From assembly GCF_050920415.1 (NCBI RefSeq), contig NZ_CP169309.1: a stretch of DNA of 64,000 nt. One strand, 5' to 3'. The translations under genes and the position numbers were made by a program. Positions 23,554 through 57,600 of the stretch are shown one piece after another. Source of the stretch: Escherichia coli (GTDB lineage Bacteria; Pseudomonadota; Gammaproteobacteria; Enterobacterales; Enterobacteriaceae). How positions within the stretch are numbered: the stretch's first letter is position 1; every line of letters starts with the position of its first letter. The notes under the pieces are model-generated. The model was not told the DNA's origin, made no database searches, and worked only from the letters and a program-made list of their open reading frames with translations.

Positions 23554-23719
23554 TGTTTAATCCTTTTGGTTTAAACCAGATGAGGCATCTTACGCTTACG
23601 CCAAAAAAGAAAGCAATTAACAGCGTATGACTTTGCAGATAATTGTGACAAAGCTCTCTATTGACGTAACCACAAACTTATAAGGGAGATACTCGCACTG
23701 GTGAGAACTTACGACAGGC

Positions 23720-23752
23720 AAAAAAAAACCTGCCATCGCTGGCAGGTTTTTT
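23720..23752 (-). terminator. Rho-independent terminator downstream of typA (bidirectional hairpin)
   Basis: A-run, hairpin cctgccatcgctggcagg, T-run. Confidence 0.8.
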
Positions 23753-23769
23753 ATGACTAAAAAACGAAA

Positions 23770-25593
23770 TTAATCGTCTTTCGGTGCGCGGTTGGCGCGA
23801 CGACGATCGTTTTCCGTCAGGTGACGTTTACGAATACGGATAGAGGTCGGAGTCACTTCTACCAGTTCGTCATCATCGATGAACTCCAGAGCTTGTTCCA
23901 GCGTCATGCGGATAGGCGGAACCAGAACAACGGCTTCGTCAGTACCGGAAGCACGCATGTTGGTCAGTTTCTTACCGGTCAGGCAGTTTACAGTCAGGTC
24001 GTTAGAACGGCTGTGAATACCGATAATCTGACCTTCGTAAACTTCTGCACCGTGACCGAGGAACAGCTTACCACGGTCCTGCAGACCGAACAGCGCGAAC
24101 GCTACCGCTTTACCCTGACCGTTAGAGATCAGTACGCCGTTCTGACGCTGACCCACTTCACCCGGACGTACGTCGTCGTAGTGGCTGAAGGTGGAGTACA
24201 ACAGACCCGTACCAGAGGTCATGGTCATGAACTCAGAACGGAAGCCAATCAGACCACGGCTTGGGATCACGTAGTCGAGACGTACGCGGCCTTTACCGTC
24301 TGGATTCATGTTTTTCAGGTCGCCTTTTCGTTCGCCAAGCGCCTGCATCACAGAACCCTGATGCTGTTCTTCAACGTCCAGAGTCACGTTTTCATACGGC
24401 TCTTGTTTACGACCGTCAATTTCACGGAAGATAACTTTCGGACGGGATACCGCCAGTTCGAAACCTTCACGACGCATGTTTTCGATCAGAACAGACAGGT
24501 GCAGTTCGCCACGACCAGAAACGCGGAACGCATCGGCGTCTTCAGTTTCTTCTACGCGCAGCGCAACGTTGTGTACCAGTTCTTTGTTCAGACGATCCAG
24601 GATCTGACGAGACGTTACGAACTTACCTTCTTTACCGCAGAACGGCGAGGTGTTAACGCAGAAGAACATAGAAACGGTCGGCTCATCAACGGAGAGTGCC
24701 GGCAGCGCTTCAACGTTTTGCGTGTCGCAAACGGTGTCAGAAATGTTCAGTTCGCCCAGGCCCGTGATCGCCACGATATCGCCAGCTTCCGCCAGATCGG
24801 TTTCGATACGTTCCAGACCGAGGTGGCCCAGCACTTTACCGACTTTCGCGTTGCGGGTTTTGCCTTCGCTATCGATGATAGTAACTTGCTGGTTCGGCTT
24901 CACTTTACCGCGCTTGATGCGGCCAATGCCGATAACGCCAACATAGCTGTTGTAATCGAGCTGAGAAATCTGCATCTGGAACGGACCGTCAAGGTCAACG
25001 TCCGGCGCAGGAACGTGGTCAACAATTGCCTGATACAGCGGGGTCATGTCTTCCGCCATATCTTCGTGGTCCAGACCCGCGATACCGTTCAGCGCAGAAG
25101 CGTAAACGATCGGGAAGTCCAGCTGCTCGTCAGTCGCGTCGAGGTTAACGAACAGGTCGAATACCTGATCCACAACCCAGTCAGGACGCGCGCCAGGGCG
25201 GTCAACTTTGTTGATAACAACAATTGGCTTCAGGCCGTAAGCAAACGCTTTTTTGGTTACGAAGCGCGTTTGCGGCATCGGGCCGTCAAATGCGTCAACC
25301 ACCAGCAGCACTGAGTCTACCATGGACATTACACGTTCAACTTCACCACCGAAGTCGGCGTGCCCCGGGGTATCAACGATGTTGATACGGTAATCATTCC
25401 ATTTGATAGCGGTGTTTTTCGCGAGGATGGTAATCCCACGCTCTTTCTCCAAATCGTTGGAGTCCATCACGCGCTCTTGGGTTTCGGCACGAGAGTCGAA
25501 CGTACCGGATTGTTGGAGCAGCTTGTCTACCAGGGTGGTTTTACCATGGTCTACGTGCGCGATGATGGCGATATTACGCAATTTTTCGATCAC
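23770..25593 (-). CDS. typA: Ribosome-dependent translational GTPase TypA/BipA
   Basis: 607 aa; G1 motif [17 protein letters not shown]. Confidence 0.95.
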
Positions 25594-25744
25594 AACTTTG
25601 CCTCAGGCATTAGAAATAGCGCGTTATTGTACACGGATTAATCGCACTACAAAACAGGATCACAAACATCCTCCGCAAACAAGTATTGCAGAGTCCCTTT
25701 GTGATCGCTTTCACGGAGCATAAAAAGGGTTATCCAAAGGTCAT

Positions 25745-25882
25745 TGCACCAATATGGTGCTTAATGTTTCCATTGAAGCACTATATTGGTGCAACATTCA
25801 CATCGTGGTGCAGCCCTTTTGCACGATGGTGCGCATGATAACGCCTTTTAGGGGCAATTTAAAAGTTGGCACAGTTTTCGCT
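25745..25882 (+). promoter_or_regulatory. glnA regulatory region: NtrC enhancer sites and sigma-54 promoter glnAp2
   Basis: TGCACCA-N3-TGGTGC type palindromes at 25745-25761 and 25779-25794; sigma-54 -24/-12 element TTGGCACAGTTTTCGCT at 25866-25882. Confidence 0.85.
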
Positions 25883-28610: not shown

Positions 28611-30020
28611 ATGCAACGAGGGATAGTCTGGGTAGTCGATGACGATAGTTCCATCCGTTGGGTGCTTGAACGTGCGCTCGCTGGAGCGGGTTTAACCTGT
28701 ACGACATTTGAGAACGGCGCAGAAGTACTGGAGGCGCTGGCGAGCAAAACGCCGGATGTGCTGCTTTCAGATATCCGTATGCCGGGAATGGACGGGCTTG
28801 CGCTGCTCAAGCAGATTAAACAGCGCCATCCGATGCTTCCGGTCATCATTATGACCGCACATTCCGATCTGGATGCTGCCGTCAGCGCCTATCAACAAGG
28901 GGCGTTTGATTATCTGCCCAAACCGTTTGATATCGACGAAGCCGTGGCGCTGGTTGAGCGCGCCATCAGCCATTATCAGGAACAGCAGCAACCGCGTAAT
29001 GTTCAGCTTAACGGCCCGACGACCGATATCATCGGCGAAGCGCCAGCCATGCAGGACGTGTTCCGGATTATCGGTCGGCTTTCACGTTCTTCTATTAGCG
29101 TGCTGATTAACGGCGAATCCGGCACCGGTAAAGAACTGGTCGCTCATGCCCTGCATCGCCACAGTCCTCGAGCCAAAGCGCCGTTTATCGCGCTGAATAT
29201 GGCGGCTATCCCGAAGGATTTGATCGAATCAGAACTGTTCGGTCACGAGAAAGGCGCGTTTACCGGCGCGAATACTATTCGTCAGGGGCGTTTTGAACAG
29301 GCCGATGGCGGCACGTTATTCCTCGATGAAATTGGCGATATGCCGCTCGATGTACAGACGCGTTTGCTGCGCGTGCTGGCAGACGGTCAGTTTTATCGCG
29401 TTGGCGGCTATGCGCCGGTGAAAGTGGATGTGCGGATTATCGCTGCGACCCATCAGAATCTCGAACAGCGGGTACAGGAAGGCAAGTTCCGTGAGGATTT
29501 GTTCCACCGCCTGAACGTTATCCGCGTTCATCTGCCGCCGCTGCGTGAGCGTCGGGAAGATATTCCCCGTCTGGCACGCCATTTTTTACAGGTTGCCGCG
29601 CGAGAGCTGGGCGTAGAAGCGAAGTTGCTGCATCCGGAAACCGAAGCCGCGCTGACGCGTCTGGCGTGGCCAGGTAACGTGCGCCAGCTGGAAAACACCT
29701 GTCGCTGGCTAACGGTGATGGCTGCCGGACAGGAAGTGTTGATTCAGGATTTGCCTGGCGAACTGTTTGAATCAAACGTACCGGAAAGCACTTCACACAT
29801 GCAACCGGACAGTTGGGCAACGCTGTTAGCGCAATGGGCAGACAGAGCGCTGCGTTCCGGTCATCAAAATTTGCTTTCCGAAGCGCAGCCTGAGCTTGAG
29901 CGGACGTTACTGACGACCGCGTTGCGACATACGCAGGGGCATAAACAGGAAGCTGCGCGGCTACTTGGCTGGGGGCGTAACACCCTGACGCGGAAGTTAA
30001 AAGAGCTGGGGATGGAGTGA
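28611..30020 (+). CDS. glnG: Nitrogen regulation response regulator NtrC (sigma-54 activator)
   Basis: 469 aa from [15 protein letters not shown]+ GESGTGKE Walker A, GAFTGA motif. Confidence 0.95.
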
Positions 30021-30131
30021 TTCACAGCTTGTGTGTAAAGATTGATTATTGAGCGCAAATTGCTGGTATTTTGCGCTTTACTGTTCCGATAAGTTCAGTA
30101 TGATCTTGCCCGGAAAACGGGGAGAGTCATT

Positions 30132-30236
30132 ATGCTGGAATCAATAATTAATCTGGTATCGAGTGGCGCAGTTGACAGCCACACACCGCAAACTGCCGTT
30201 GCTGCCGTGCTGTGTGCTGCGATGATTGGGCTGTTT
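30132..30236 (+). CDS. Small ORF (34 codons) with GGAGAG RBS between glnG and hemN; possibly yshB
   Basis: ATG at 30132 preceded by GGAGAG; hand translation MLESIINLVSSGAVDSHTANCRCCRAVCCDDWAV; identity with yshB not verified. Confidence 0.3.
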
Positions 30237-30255
30237 AGCTGAAGCTCGTTGTTTA

Positions 30256-30367
<112 letters not shown>

Positions 30368-30477
30368 AAAGCAATAATTTCTACAGGTTTTGTTGCCCAG
30401 CGCATCAGGCAATCTTGTTCTCAGCACATTGATGGCGCTTTCGTTTTCTACTTTGTAAACGAAGCGCCATTCACTAT

Positions 30478-31851
30478 TTAAATCACCCGTGAGAACTGCT
30501 GCATCCGCGCTTTCTGGCGCAGATAGGTATCAAAGCACATGCAAATGTTGCGGATCAGTAAGCGACCTTTCGCCGTTACCTGAATCCCCTTCTCATCCAC
30601 ATCCACCAGCCCATCTTTTGCTAACGGGGCAAGCAGCTTGAGATCTTCTGCAAAGTAGTCAGCGAAGTGCAAATCCCACTGTTGCTCAATGGGGGCATAA
30701 TCCAGACGGAAGTTGCAGATGAGCGACTTAATCACATCGCGACGAATACAGTCATCACGCGTTAGCGCAATACCACGCCACAGCGCATTGCCTTGTTCAT
30801 CCACTTGCTGATAGTACTGCTTCAACTCTTTCTGATTCTGCGCGTAGCAGTCGCCAATCATGCTGATGGCTGAAACGCCCATCCCCAGCAGGTCGGTATC
30901 GCCCTGAGTGGTGTAGCCCTGGAAGTTACGATGCAGCACGCCTTCACGCTGGGCCACCGCCAGCTCGTCATCCGGACGGGCAAAGTGATCCATACCGATA
31001 AACTGATAGCCCGATTGTGTCAGGAAGGCGATGGTTTCCTGCAGGATATCCAGTTTTTGCTGTGGACTCGGCAGGTCAGCATCTTTGATTTTTCGCTGAG
31101 CAGCAAAAATGGTCGGCAGATGCGCATAGTTAAAGACGCTCAGACGATCGGGGTTCAGCTCCGCCACGCGTTTCAGGGTAAAGGCGAAACTCTCCGGCGT
31201 CTGTTTCGGCAGGCCGTAAATCAGGTCGATGTTGGTGGAGGTAAAACCAATCTCACGCGCATGGTTAAGCAGTGCAAAGATGAACTCTTCATCCTGCTCG
31301 CGGTTAACCAGACGTTGCACTTCTTTGTTGAAGTCCTGCACGCCCATGCTCAGGCGATTAAAGCCCTCGGCGCGTAAATGATCGAGTACATCCAGTTCGA
31401 TTTCGCGCGGATCGACTTCGATCGAAATCTCCGCATCGGCATTGAACTGGAAGTTTTCGCGCAGCAGCTTCATCAGCCGGCTGATTTGCGCTTTATTCAG
31501 ATACGTCGGCGTTCCTCCGCCCCAGTGCAATTGGCTGACGTGACGCCCGGCGAACAGCGGTGCACGATGGACGATTTCTTGCTCCAGCGCGTCCAGATAC
31601 TGATCGGCCTTGTGCTGCTGGCGAGTAACAATCTTATTGCAACCGCAGAAGTAACAAAGCTTATGGCAGAACGGAATATGTACGTAGAGAGATAATGGAC
31701 GCTCAGGATAGCGCGCCACGGCTTGTAAAAACGCCTGTTCGCCGAAGTCTTCTGAAAACTCCAGCGCGGTCGGGTACGAGGTGTATCGTGGCCCGGAATA
31801 GTTATATTTCTGGATCAGGGCCAGATCCCAGTCGATTTGCTGTACAGACAT
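30478..31851 (-). CDS. hemN: Oxygen-independent coproporphyrinogen III dehydrogenase (radical SAM)
   Basis: 457 aa; radical-SAM cysteine motif CHKLCYFCGC. Confidence 0.95.
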   Translation of the reverse strand: MSVQQIDWDLALIQKYNYSGPRYTSYPTALEFSEDFGEQAFLQAVARYPERPLSLYVHIPFCHKLCYFCGCNKIVTRQQHKADQYLDALEQEIVHRAPLFAGRHVSQLHWGGGTPTYLNKAQISRLMKLLRENFQFNADAEISIEVDPREIELDVLDHLRAEGFNRLSMGVQDFNKEVQRLVNREQDEEFIFALLNHAREIGFTSTNIDLIYGLPKQTPESFAFTLKRVAELNPDRLSVFNYAHLPTIFAAQRKIKDADLPSPQQKLDILQETIAFLTQSGYQFIGMDHFARPDDELAVAQREGVLHRNFQGYTTQGDTDLLGMGVSAISMIGDCYAQNQKELKQYYQQVDEQGNALWRGIALTRDDCIRRDVIKSLICNFRLDYAPIEQQWDLHFADYFAEDLKLLAPLAKDGLVDVDEKGIQVTAKGRLLIRNICMCFDTYLRQKARMQQFSRVI

Positions 31852-32549: not shown

Positions 32550-32616
32550 AATGGTTCGTCTTTTAGCCGTTTTATTCAGTATAGATTTGCGGCGGAATCT
32601 AACAGAAAGCAAGCAA

Positions 32617-32860
32617 AGAAAAAAGGCGACAGATTACTCTGTCGCCTTTTTTCCTGACTCATAACCCTTAACGGGTCTTACAATCCTTGCAGGCCGCCAA
32701 CACACCCTGTTTTTCCATTAGCCGGAACAATCCGTGTTGATTCCATTTCCGTTTAATTACGTCTCCGGACGTTTGTCTTCCTGACAATCCTCTGTCTTCG
32801 CCTCCTGGCGCTCCTGACCCTCATCCTGAGTCATTGTTCCTGTTAGCGTCCTCGCTCTAT
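32617..32860 (-). ncRNA. csrC: CsrC small RNA (CsrA-sequestering)
   Basis: About 244 nt with many GGA motifs on the minus strand; 5' end ATAGAGCGAGGACGCTAACAGG and terminal hairpin GGCGACAGAGTAATCTGTCGCC + U-run match recalled CsrC; location in the engB-yihI intergenic region. Confidence 0.85.
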
Positions 32861-33886: not shown

Positions 33887-33997
33887 AATAAAAAACGCCC
33901 CAGTCATTACTGACTGGGGCGGCTAAAATATTCAGCCAAATCCGATTACGTGAAGTAAAAGGTCTGAAAGATAGAACATCTTACCTCTGTACCCTAC
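33887..33997 (-). ncRNA. spf: Spot 42 small RNA
   Basis: Minus-strand sequence GTAGGGTACAGAGGTAAGATGTTCTATCTTTCAGACC...GACTGGGGCGTTTTTTATT matches recalled Spot 42 including terminator; located downstream of polA. Confidence 0.93.
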
Positions 33998-34144
33998 GCG
34001 ACTAACTTTACTCTTTTTTGTTCAGTTCAGAAAGCATTTTTTGTAATTTTTTTTCAGTTGTTGCATAGGAATTTCTAATAGCCATCACAAAACGTGACAG
34101 CTTATGTTGCTTACTTACGAAAAAAGGGCATGTTCAGGCGAATC

Positions 34145-43092: not shown

Positions 43093-43212
43093 ATGCCTGG
43101 CAGTTCCCTACTCTCGCATGGGGAGACCCCACACTACCATCGGCGCTACGGCGTTTCACTTCTGAGTTCGGCATGGGGTCAGGTGGGACCACCGCGCTAA
43201 GGCCGCCAGGCA
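43093..43212 (-). rRNA. rrfA: 5S ribosomal RNA
   Basis: Reverse complement TGCCTGGCGGCC...GGGAACTGCCAGGCAT, 120 nt. Confidence 0.97.
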
Positions 43213-43315
43213 AATTCTGTTTCATCAGACCGCTTCTGCGTTCTGATTTAATCTGTATCAGGCTGAAAATCTTCTCTCAATCCGCCAAAACATCTTCGGC
43301 GTTGTAAGGTTAAGC

Positions 43316-46208
<2,893 letters not shown>

Positions 46209-46391
46209 TCACAACCCGAAGATGTTTCTTTCGATTCATCATCGTGTTGCGAAAATTTGAGAGACTCACGAACAACTTTCGTTGTTCAGTGTTTCAATTT
46301 TCAGCTTGATCCAGATTTTTAAAGAGCAAAACTTCGCAGTGAACCTTTGCAGGTACACTCTGAAGTATTTTTTATTTAATCACTACAGAGA

Positions 46392-46467
46392 TGGTGGAGC
46401 TATGCGGGATCGAACCGCAGACCTCCTGCGTGCAAAGCAGGCGCTCTCCCAGCTGAGCTATAGCCCC
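46392..46467 (-). tRNA. alaT: tRNA-Ala (UGC), rRNA spacer tRNA
   Basis: Reverse complement GGGGCTATAGCTCAGCTGGGAGAGCGCCTGCTTTGCACGCAGGAGGTCTGCGGTTCGATCCCGCATAGCTCCACCA. Confidence 0.97.
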
Positions 46468-46509
46468 ATAACATGTAGTTAAAACCTCTTCAAATTTGCG
46501 GTGCAAATT

Positions 46510-46585
46510 TGGTAGGCCTGAGTGGACTTGAACCACCGACCTCACCCTTATCAGGGGTGCGCTTAACCACCTGAGCTACAAGCCT
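46510..46585 (-). tRNA. ileT: tRNA-Ile (GAU), rRNA spacer tRNA
   Basis: Reverse complement AGGCTTGTAGCTCAGGTGGTTA...CCCTGATAAGGGTGAGGTCGGTGGTTCAAGTCCACTCAGGCCTACCA. Confidence 0.95.
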
Positions 46586-46653
46586 GTAGAGGTTTTACTG
46601 CTCATTTTCATCAGACAATCTGTGTGAGCACTGCAAAGCACAGTTCTTTAAGG

Positions 46654-48190
<1,537 letters not shown>

Positions 48191-56115: not shown

Positions 56116-57600
<1,485 letters not shown>

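What the first reader, a model, noticed from the sequence alone, without database searches (positions are those of the whole stretch)
30132..30236. Unlisted small ORF with good RBS in the glnG-hemN intergenic region
ATG at 30132 preceded by GGAGAG gives a 34-codon ORF (hand translation MLESIINLVSSGAVDSHTANCRCCRAVCCDDWAV) just before the BIME. K-12 has a small annotated gene (yshB) in this neighbourhood; whether this ORF corresponds to it, or is a variant, I cannot verify. The Cys-rich C-terminus is unusual and could reflect a frame difference.
Basis: partly seen in the sequence, partly recalled or inferred. Interest (0 to 1): 0.2.

Follow-up and report, generated by a model that had tools for sequence, protein, structure and literature searches.

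The report
Known small membrane protein gene yshB
The small ORF is real and is the already annotated E. coli gene yshB, encoding a 36-residue membrane microprotein identical to the K-12 protein; the odd cysteine-rich tail was a hand-translation slip, so the finding is ordinary.

Summary
The ATG at 30132 and its Shine-Dalgarno sequence (GGGGAGAG, 30119-30126) are there. The ORF runs to 30242 and has 36 codons, not 34: MLESIINLVSSGAVDSHTPQTAVAAVLCAAMIGLFS.

The protein is 100% identical to K-12 YshB (b4686). It scores 72 bits against NCBIfam NF033841 (cut-off 34). It is annotated yshB in RefSeq and sits as a single copy in 5425 of 5426 complete E. coli genomes.

In 74 species-representative genomes from three enterobacterial families, the gene always lies about 100-113 nt after the glnG stop. 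It shows purifying selection there (E. coli vs Salmonella: 16.5 synonymous, 3.5 non-synonymous differences). A near-invariant promoter (TTTACT-16 nt-TATGAT) and a Shine-Dalgarno sequence precede it.

Published work reports detection of the native protein by top-down mass spectrometry, cleavage by the intramembrane protease RseP, its own promoter with no induction under nitrogen limitation, and a role in Salmonella intracellular replication.

The most likely mode of action is a single-pass inner-membrane microprotein that modulates an unknown partner. This is already known; interest is low.

The parts
30132..30242 (+). yshB coding sequence: 36 codons plus a TGA stop, encoding MLESIINLVSSGAVDSHTPQTAVAAVLCAAMIGLFS
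   Evidence: ORF and translation. (identical to K-12 b4686). (NF033841, 72.1 bits against cut-off 34). (annotated yshB in RefSeq; single copy in 5425 of 5426 complete E. coli genomes). (purifying selection).
30119..30126 (+). Shine-Dalgarno sequence GGGGAGAG, 5 nt upstream of the ATG
   Evidence: Sequence. A purine-rich SD-like tetramer lies within 20 nt upstream in 78 of 79 orthologous loci and is aligned across genera.
30077..30104 (+). Predicted yshB sigma-70-type promoter: -35 TTTACT (30077-30082), 16-nt spacer, -10 TATGAT (30099-30104). The inferred transcription start is near 30110-30112, giving a 5' UTR of about 20 nt.
   Evidence: Consensus scan. Phylogenetic footprint: TTTACT in 71 and TTTACA in 5 of 79 loci, a 16-nt spacer in 76, TATGAT in 69, with variable sequence around them. 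PMC9731577 states that yshB has its own promoter. The transcription start is inferred, not measured here.
30051..30078 (+). Hairpin AGCGCAAAU/AUUUUGCGCU downstream of the glnG stop. It is a possible glnALG terminator whose 3' arm and T-tail overlap the yshB -35 element.
   Evidence: Fold (-11.2 kcal/mol; weak, z = -1.16). Partly conserved. The terminator scan did not call it. Tentative.
28611..30020 (+). glnG (ntrC), the upstream neighbour. yshB lies 111 nt after its stop codon.
   Evidence: The glnG-yshB spacing is 96-113 nt in nearly all orthologous loci.
30250..30370 (.). REP/BIME cluster immediately downstream of the yshB stop. It probably forms the structured 3' end of the yshB transcript.
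   Evidence: Inverted repeats. Rfam naRNA4 (REP-derived), 71.4 bits on the - strand at 30279-30363. Fold of -61 kcal/mol, z = -5.5. The spacer matches a median of 28 places per E. coli genome. Absent at this size in Salmonella, so it is not part of the conserved gene.
30431..30471 (.). Strong hairpin between the BIME and the hemN stop codon; a candidate terminator for the convergent hemN and yshB transcripts
   Evidence: about -20 kcal/mol and z about -6 on both strands. No T-run, so the terminator scan did not call it.
30478..31851 (-). hemN, the convergent downstream neighbour

Best explanation
Window 30132-30242 (+) is yshB, a core enterobacterial gene for a 36-residue (3.6 kDa, acidic, no Lys/Arg) small inner-membrane protein, here identical to the K-12 protein.

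Shown here or in the cited literature:
- It is a separate transcription unit with its own conserved sigma-70-type promoter and Shine-Dalgarno sequence, wedged between the glnALG operon and the convergent hemN.
- It is translated.
- It evolves under purifying selection.
- The tagged protein is a substrate of the site-2 intramembrane protease RseP.
- The Salmonella orthologue promotes intracellular replication.

Inferred:
- The peptide has an N-terminal amphipathic helix (residues 2-13), a short linker of variable length, and a C-terminal helix (17-35). That helix opens with the conserved HTPQTA motif and continues as an Ala/Gly-rich hydrophobic segment carrying a conserved Cys28.
- It is released from the ribosome before it can be targeted co-translationally, so it inserts post-translationally. 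It sits N-in/C-out like a tail-anchored protein.
- It acts by packing its small-residue face (A25-A29-G33, next to C28) against a larger membrane protein whose activity or stability it modulates, as MgrB, AcrZ, MgtS and CydX do.
- Its level is set by its promoter and by RseP-dependent turnover.

The partner is unknown. My confidence is about 0.99 for the identity, about 0.8 for 'single-pass membrane microprotein' and about 0.4 for the partner-modulator mechanism.
For: Identity:
- The sequence is identical to K-12 b4686.
- It scores 72.1 bits against NF033841, cut-off 34.
- The exact sequence is named YSHB_ECOLI in UniRef.
- It is annotated yshB and present as a single copy in 5425 of 5426 complete E. 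coli genomes at 95% identity or more.

Coding, not chance:
- 74 of 76 hits of a motif scan over one genome per species are intact ORFs of 35-40 codons, about 100-113 nt after glnG.
- Only frame +1 is open in all 77 distinct sequences.
- E. coli vs Salmonella shows 16.5 synonymous and 3.5 non-synonymous differences, pN/pS 0.08. All pairs give 0.27, or 0.40 on codons not fixed by the search pattern. Third codon positions vary 2-4 times more than first and second positions.

Expression signals: conserved -35, 16-nt spacer, -10 and SD. PMC9731577 reports an own promoter and no induction under nitrogen limitation.

Translation: native YshB was detected by top-down proteomics (PMC12529367). More than 11,000 copies per stationary-phase cell are quoted in PMC7549839 and PMC10502375.

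Membrane and RseP: YshB is a class I RseP substrate in all four assays, including chromosomal RseP and purified enzyme (PMC10470546).

Structure:
- GRAVY is 1.12, with hydrophobic residues 21-36.
- The N-terminal helix is amphipathic (muH 0.49; 0.3% of shuffles reach it). The C-terminal helix is uniformly hydrophobic and has small-xxx-small pairs A24-C28, A25-A29 and A29-G33.
- AlphaFold2 with 35 sequences gives helices 2-13 and 17-35, pLDDT 74.

Phenotype: a Salmonella virulence and replication role (Bomjan et al. 2019), as cited in PMC10470546 and PMC9731577.
Against: - The hydrophobic core (A22-F35) is only 14-15 residues, short for a membrane span. There are no basic residues to fix the topology, so N-in/C-out rests on RseP cleavage of N-terminally tagged constructs, and tags can alter topology (stated in PMC10470546).
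- No interaction partner is known, and no solved structure contains the peptide.
- The invariance of HTPQTA..A..CA in my 74-genome set is partly circular, because those residues defined the search pattern. Only the pattern-free phmmer hits support it independently.
- E. coli isolates carry P19Q (seen on 238 contigs), P19S, P19R and H17P variants, so the motif tolerates change.
- I could not read the primary papers (Hemm 2008, Bomjan 2019).
Confidence: 0.9

Rival explanations
1. The ORF is a variant or frameshifted yshB allele that encodes a different, Cys-rich C-terminus (the reading the first-stage reader left open).
For: Frameshifted database entries with a similar tail do exist, for example P0021 MLESIINLVSSGAVDSHTPQTAVAARAVCRNDWAV, so such a tail is what a real frameshift in this gene would give.
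Against: Mechanical translation of 30132-30242 gives the canonical 36-residue YshB. The Cys-rich string is the frame that begins at 30188. The window differs from K-12 inside the CDS at only two synonymous sites and has no indel.
Confidence: 0.01
2. The locus is a non-coding RNA or simply spacer, and the ORF is a chance open frame with a fortuitous Shine-Dalgarno sequence.
For: An SD-preceded ORF of this length occurs in about 12% of shuffled spacers. The antisense frame -2 is also open in 59 of 77 orthologues, which shows that open frames here can be compositional.
Against: There is a strong excess of synonymous change and the ATG, frame and C-terminal length (exactly 20 codons from His17) are conserved across three families. 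Only +1 is open in all 77 sequences. The open antisense frame follows from the absence of Tyr and the scarcity of CAx codons. No Rfam family other than the REP-derived naRNA4 downstream matches. The native protein was detected by MS.
Confidence: 0.01
3. YshB is a type I toxin-like or membrane-perturbing peptide (like Hok, Ldr, Ibs or TisB), whose effect comes from disturbing the membrane itself rather than from binding a specific partner.
For: It is small and hydrophobic, with a single predicted helix. It falls in the same RseP 'class I substrate' group as HokB and HokE. Its high copy number would suit a bulk membrane effect.
Against: No antisense or overlapping antitoxin RNA family was found. 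It has no basic residues and is acidic. It is a single-copy core gene fixed at one locus in 5425 of 5426 genomes, rather than a multicopy or mobile one. More than 11,000 copies per cell are tolerated in stationary phase. No toxicity of YshB is mentioned in the passages read from the RseP study, which singles out HokB.
Confidence: 0.07
4. yshB is functionally the last gene of the glnALG nitrogen-regulation operon. It would be read through from glnG and act in Ntr signalling or ammonium assimilation.
For: Linkage to glnG is strict, with a 96-113 nt spacing, across Enterobacteriaceae, Erwiniaceae and Pectobacteriaceae members. This holds even in loci L005/L006, where the downstream neighbour is a solute-binding protein gene instead of hemN. 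The putative glnG terminator is weak (z = -1.16) and overlaps the yshB -35 element.
Against: [quoted passage not shown] The conserved -35/-10 footprint supports independent transcription. No sigma-54 -24/-12 element is evident in the conserved upstream sequence (my reading). NtrB and NtrC are cytoplasmic (established knowledge), which leaves no obvious role for a membrane peptide.
Confidence: 0.08

Closest known systems
YshB of E. coli K-12 (b4686, YP_002791260.1; NCBIfam NF033841 'YshB family small membrane protein'; Pfam PF28018 in the collection's precomputed hits)
   Same: The 36-residue sequence is identical, the genomic position is the same (glnG | yshB | REP | hemN) and the promoter and SD are the same.
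   Different: Two synonymous substitutions in the CDS, one substitution upstream of the -35 element, and a 7-nt extra GATGCCG copy plus three substitutions in the downstream REP/spacer region. The protein does not differ at all.
YshB of Salmonella enterica (Bomjan, Zhang and Zhou 2019, J Bacteriol 201:e00314-19; cited, not read here)
   Same: It is the orthologue at the same locus, 36 residues, 33 of 36 identical (V23L, M31L, I32V), with the same promoter, SD and start.
   Different: The E. coli locus carries a larger BIME between yshB and hemN. The virulence and intracellular-replication phenotype was shown for Salmonella only.
Single-pass small-membrane-protein modulators of E. coli (MgrB-PhoQ, AcrZ-AcrB, MgtS-MgtA, CydX-CydAB)
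   Same: The size class, the single hydrophobic helix, the separate small transcription unit and the RseP-substrate screening set (MgrB and CydX appear in the same screen) are shared. A small-residue helix face suits helix packing.
   Different: There is no sequence similarity. No partner is known for YshB, it has no basic flanking residues, and its hydrophobic segment is unusually short. This is a functional analogy only.
Hok-type type I toxins
   Same: They are small, hydrophobic, class I RseP substrates.
   Different: YshB has no antitoxin RNA, no positive charges, no reported toxicity and is not multicopy.

Membership tests
YshB family small membrane protein (NCBIfam NF033841, equivalog) | Whole-protein HMM score above the curated cut-off (34 bits) | tested here: met
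   72.1 bits, E = 2.4e-20, residues 1-36 on profile positions 1-40 of 40.
YshB family small membrane protein (NCBIfam NF033841, equivalog) | Sequence identity to the reference protein, E. coli K-12 YshB (b4686) | tested here: met
   36 of 36 residues identical. The exact sequence is held as YSHB_ECOLI.
YshB family small membrane protein (NCBIfam NF033841, equivalog) | Conserved position immediately downstream of glnG (ntrC), same strand, with its own promoter | tested here: met
   111 nt after the glnG stop in the window. The spacing is 96-113 nt in nearly all of 79 orthologous loci. The -35/-10 footprint is conserved.
YshB family small membrane protein (NCBIfam NF033841, equivalog) | Family motif: M-L/F-E-S/T start, HTPQTA, A25, C28-A29, and exactly 20 residues from His17 to the C-terminus | tested here: met
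   This is partly circular for the residues used in the scan pattern; the pattern-free hits P0029, P0030 and P0016 support it independently.
YshB family small membrane protein (NCBIfam NF033841, equivalog) | Pfam family PF28018 (YshB) | tested here: inconclusive
   The local Pfam-A copy returned no family, but the collection's precomputed hits list PF28018:YshB for the orthologues. The model is probably newer than the local copy.
YshB family small membrane protein (NCBIfam NF033841, equivalog) | The protein is actually made and is membrane-associated | not testable with these tools
   Literature only: top-down MS detection (PMC12529367) and RseP intramembrane cleavage of tagged forms (PMC10470546). 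Predictions agree: hydropathy and helices.
Type I toxin-antitoxin small hydrophobic toxins (Hok, Ldr, Ibs, TisB) | A cognate antisense or overlapping antitoxin sRNA, and toxicity on expression | tested here: not met
   No Rfam antitoxin or sRNA family lies over or beside the ORF at E <= 1. It is abundant in stationary phase. Toxicity itself is not testable here.
   Inverted repeats I1, I4 and I5. Rfam naRNA4 at 71.4 bits against a gathering score of 59.5. A median of 28 matching places per E. coli genome.

The most novel reading that the evidence does not exclude
The linkage of yshB to glnLG is never broken in the loci examined. It is kept in three enterobacterial families and also where hemN is replaced by another neighbour, and the -35 element is embedded in the tail of the putative glnG terminator. 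This linkage might reflect a real functional tie: YshB could be a membrane-embedded modulator of a nitrogen-related membrane protein such as an ammonium or amino-acid transporter, or its promoter could be occluded or activated by glnALG read-through. That would link nitrogen status to the Salmonella intracellular-replication phenotype.
Probability: 0.08. Interest if true: 0.45.

Novelty: already known. Interest (0 to 1): 0.04.

Why it matters
For the genome scan it matters only as a calibration point. Biologically, YshB is a core enterobacterial microprotein with a reported Salmonella virulence phenotype and no known molecular mechanism. The by-products of this check could help anyone designing mutants or partner screens: the phyletic range, the fixed 20-residue C-terminal module beginning with HTPQTA, the variable linker and the invariant promoter geometry. 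None of it changes what the locus is.

Tried and rejected
I used the exhaustive phmmer representative search instead.
- The primary papers are not held: Bomjan 2019, Hemm 2008, Hemm 2010 and Fontaine 2011. Their content is cited only through papers that quote them, or marked as my own knowledge.
- The local Pfam copy gave no hit, PADLOC gave none and PDB chains gave none at E <= 10.
- The literature search for 'b4686' returned only unrelated antibody catalogue numbers.
- The terminator scan found no canonical intrinsic terminator in 29900-30550. The hairpins I report lack T-runs or have long loops.
- I looked for a sigma-54 -24/-12 element upstream of yshB by eye in the alignment. The GG-to-GC spacing does not fit and the GG is not conserved, so I rejected it.
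- I considered an antisense gene because frame -2 is open in 59 of 77 orthologues. I rejected it as a compositional by-product, since a stop in that frame needs a TAx or T|CAx context and YshB has no Tyr and only two CAx codons.
- I did not run a fold search on the AlphaFold model. Two short helices would give meaningless matches.

Full report
**1. The observation**

The + strand has an ATG at 30132. The mechanical ORF list gives 30132..30242, 36 codons plus TGA: MLESIINLVSSGAVDSHTPQTAVAAVLCAAMIGLFS.

Its tail ANCRCCRAVCCDDWAV is exactly what translation from 30188 gives, ending at a TAG at 30236-30238.

The '34 codons', the end at 30236 and the 'Cys-rich C-terminus' all follow from that slip. 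The real peptide has a single Cys.

As a bare ORF it is not statistically remarkable. About 12% of shuffles of the 457-nt glnG-hemN spacer contain an ATG ORF of at least 36 codons with an SD-like tetramer.

**2. Identity**

- The spacer is 100% identical to E. coli strain MFDS1022581, where RefSeq annotates glnL, glnG, yshB ('YshB family small membrane protein', WP_000893994.1) and hemN in this order.
- In K-12 MG1655 the same position holds yshB (b4686, YP_002791260.1). Its translation is identical to the window's.
- The only CDS differences from K-12 are two synonymous third-position changes.
- The peptide scores 72.1 bits against NCBIfam NF033841 small_YshB (equivalog, cut-off 34).
- The exact sequence is held in the protein collection under the UniRef name YSHB_ECOLI.
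- Promoter plus CDS (30070-30242) occurs exactly once in 5425 of 5426 complete E. coli genomes, always at 95% identity or more and annotated yshB in the sampled rows.

The 'variant' alternative is wrong.

**3. Is it a real gene? Comparative evidence made here**

An exhaustive phmmer search of 1.84 billion cluster representatives found only 15 hits at E <= 1e-3. Apart from one long (1691-residue) protein with no aligned stretch, they are YshB-like sequences; many are frameshifted or mis-started, and the genuinely diverged ones keep HTPQTA...A..CA.

The orthologues I looked up are all encoded directly after glnLG. This includes a lineage (L005/L006) where the downstream neighbour is a solute-binding-protein gene rather than hemN.

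A degenerate DNA pattern for H-T-P-Q-T-A-x2-A-x-(L/M)-C-A, scanned over one genome per species (100,044 species), gave 76 hits, of which 74 are YshB genes. They come from:
- Escherichia, Salmonella, Citrobacter, Enterobacter, Klebsiella, Kosakonia, Pluralibacter, Mangrovibacter, Trabulsiella, Siccibacter, Franconibacter, Shimwellia, Leclercia, Phytobacter and Pseudenterobacter;
- Izhakiella and Erwinia sp. OLFS4;
- Brenneria and Affinibrenneria.

Features of these genes:
- In every one the stretch from His17 to the stop is exactly 20 codons.
- The N-terminal part has 15-20 codons, with a four-residue insertion in the linker in several genera. Total length is 35-40 residues.
- The start is always ATG. 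All three stop codons are used. Only frame +1 is open in all 77 distinct sequences.
- E. coli vs Salmonella shows 16.5 synonymous against 3.5 non-synonymous differences (pN/pS 0.08). Over all pairs pN/pS is 0.27, and 0.40 when the codons fixed by my search pattern are left out. These are uncorrected proportions, so saturation of synonymous sites makes the ratios conservative.
- Third codon positions vary 2-4 times more than first and second positions.

This is the signature of a protein-coding gene under purifying selection.

One caveat applies. The invariance of the motif residues in the 74-genome set is imposed by the pattern, and only the phmmer hits support it independently. Rare E. coli alleles carry P19Q (238 contigs), P19S, P19R or H17P.

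**4. Expression signals**

The consensus scan finds TTTACT-16 nt-TATGAT at 30077-30104. Aligned across 22 genera, these two hexamers and their spacing stand out from otherwise variable sequence. Over 79 loci:
- the -35 element is TTTACT in 71 and TTTACA in 5;
- the spacer is 16 nt in 76;
- the -10 element is TATGAT in 69;
- the -10 element ends 24-28 nt before the ATG in 74;
- an SD-like purine run is present in 78.

I infer a transcription start near 30110-30112 and a 5' UTR of about 20 nt. [quoted passage not shown]

Upstream, a modest hairpin (30051-30078, -11.2 kcal/mol, z = -1.16) could be the glnALG terminator, and its 3' arm and T-tail overlap the -35 element. Downstream in E. coli there are two structures:
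- a REP/BIME cluster at about 30250-30370 (Rfam naRNA4; -61 kcal/mol);
- a strong hairpin at 30431-30471 next to the hemN stop.

No canonical intrinsic terminator was called. Salmonella has a much shorter spacer, so the BIME is not part of the conserved unit.

**5. Published evidence**

- Native YshB was detected by top-down proteomics. It has no tryptic sites, which explains why bottom-up methods miss it (PMC12529367).
- It has been estimated at more than 11,000 copies per stationary-phase cell (quoted in PMC7549839 and PMC10502375).
- A C-terminally His-tagged version was not detectable in one study.
- YshB is a class I substrate of the S2P intramembrane protease RseP. It was positive with HA-MBP and 3xFLAG tags, with chromosomal RseP and with purified enzyme, and it is also clipped periplasmically by other proteases (PMC10470546).
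- The Salmonella homologue promotes replication in host cells and is required for virulence (Bomjan et al. 2019, cited). I could not read that paper or Hemm et al. 2008, which first described the gene.
- SmORFinder lists the family as a core small ORF of E. coli, Klebsiella, Salmonella and Shigella.
- yshB mRNA fell in E. coli in DSS-colitis mice.

**6. How it probably works**

The peptide is 3.6 kDa with pI about 4.4. It has no Lys or Arg, and its GRAVY is 1.12.
- Residues 2-13 form an amphipathic helix (muH 0.49; only 0.3% of shuffles reach it).
- Residues 14-16 are a linker of variable length.
- Residues 17-35 form a second helix. It begins with HTPQTA and continues as a uniformly hydrophobic Ala/Gly-rich segment with small-xxx-small pairs A24-C28, A25-A29 and A29-G33.
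- AlphaFold2 with a 35-sequence alignment gives the same two helices at moderate confidence (pLDDT 74).

At 36 residues the chain is released before it emerges from the ribosome, so insertion must be post-translational. That is the general argument made for this protein class in PMC7549839 and PMC10502375.

RseP generally cleaves N-in/C-out single-span substrates. YshB ends one residue after its hydrophobic segment, so a tail-anchored N-in/C-out orientation is the simplest reading.

My best guess, which is inferred rather than shown, is that YshB packs its small-residue face against a larger inner-membrane protein and modulates it, as MgrB, AcrZ, MgtS and CydX do. Its abundance would be set by its promoter and by RseP-dependent turnover.

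Weak points of this model:
- the hydrophobic core is only 14-15 residues;
- there are no charged flanks to fix the topology;
- the cleavage assays used tags;
- no partner is known;
- no solved structure contains the peptide.

**7. Rivals**

- A Cys-rich variant allele is refuted.
- A chance ORF or non-coding RNA is refuted by the selection pattern and the MS detection. The antisense frame that stays open in 59 of 77 orthologues is a by-product of the lack of Tyr and the scarcity of CAx codons.
- A Hok-like toxin is unlikely. There is no antitoxin RNA, the peptide is acidic, the gene is single-copy and core, and it is highly abundant.
- Membership of the glnALG operon or nitrogen regulation is contradicted by PMC9731577 and by the conserved independent promoter. 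The strict linkage to glnG remains unexplained, and it is the only mildly novel angle.

**8. Verdict**

The one feature flagged as unusual is an artefact of hand translation. Interest is very low.

Noticed in passing
window 32607-32860 (-); L001 5148-5314: Rfam finds the sRNA CsrC here (277.9 bits). In the RefSeq record of the identical strain, PGAP annotates a 'hypothetical protein, frameshifted; internal stop' pseudogene at L001 5148-5314, which maps to window 32668-32834. That is inside CsrC, so the pseudo-CDS is probably an annotation artefact laid over a non-coding RNA.
   Followed up: partly
window 30324-30337: Relative to K-12 MG1655, the BIME carries one extra 7-nt GATGCCG unit (a tandem duplication inside a REP) plus a few substitutions. 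The whole spacer is 100% identical only to strain MFDS1022581 among the listed hits.
   Followed up: partly
window 30033-30040 and 30051-30078: Two features between the glnG stop and the yshB -35 element are conserved across many genera. One is a GTGTAAAG box. The other is a GCGCAAA...TTTTGCGC hairpin-like element that overlaps the -35 element. The hairpin is thermodynamically weak (z = -1.16), and the role of the box is unexplained.
   Followed up: partly
window 30431-30471: A strong hairpin (about -20 kcal/mol, z about -6 on both strands) abuts the hemN stop codon, with no T-run on either side. It is a candidate terminator or RNA-stabilising element for the convergent hemN and yshB transcripts.
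   Followed up: no
Many of the 50%-identity 'representatives' of this family are such frameshifted, read-through or mis-started calls, which inflates the apparent diversity of the family.
   Followed up: no
The local Pfam-A copy returns no family for YshB, while the collection's precomputed annotation lists PF28018:YshB for the orthologues. The Pfam model appears to be newer than the local library.
   Followed up: no
L005/L006 2501-2614: In one lineage (assembly GCA_000404125.1, organism not identified here) the 37-residue YshB (MLESIIHFVTQTAETGAHTPQTAMAAIMCALMLNLFH) stays next to glnG, but the downstream neighbour is an SBP_bac_5 solute-binding protein gene instead of hemN. The conserved linkage is therefore to glnLG, not to hemN.
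   Followed up: partly
window 43095-48190 (-), 33889-34007 (-), 25675-25782 (-), 23717-23785 (-), 1010-1052 (-), 57447-57517 (-): Other Rfam matches in the window: a complete rrn operon (16S, two tRNAs, 23S, 5S, with StyR-44 in the spacer), Spot 42, ES222 upstream of glnA, STnc370, ES036 and a second REP-derived naRNA4. All are expected features of this E. coli chromosomal region.
   Followed up: no
E. coli YshB alleles P0002, P0005, P0007, P0015: Natural E. coli variants change the otherwise conserved HTPQTA motif: P19Q (seen on 238 contigs), P19S, P19R and H17P. The motif is therefore not absolutely required for carriage of the gene in the population.
   Followed up: no
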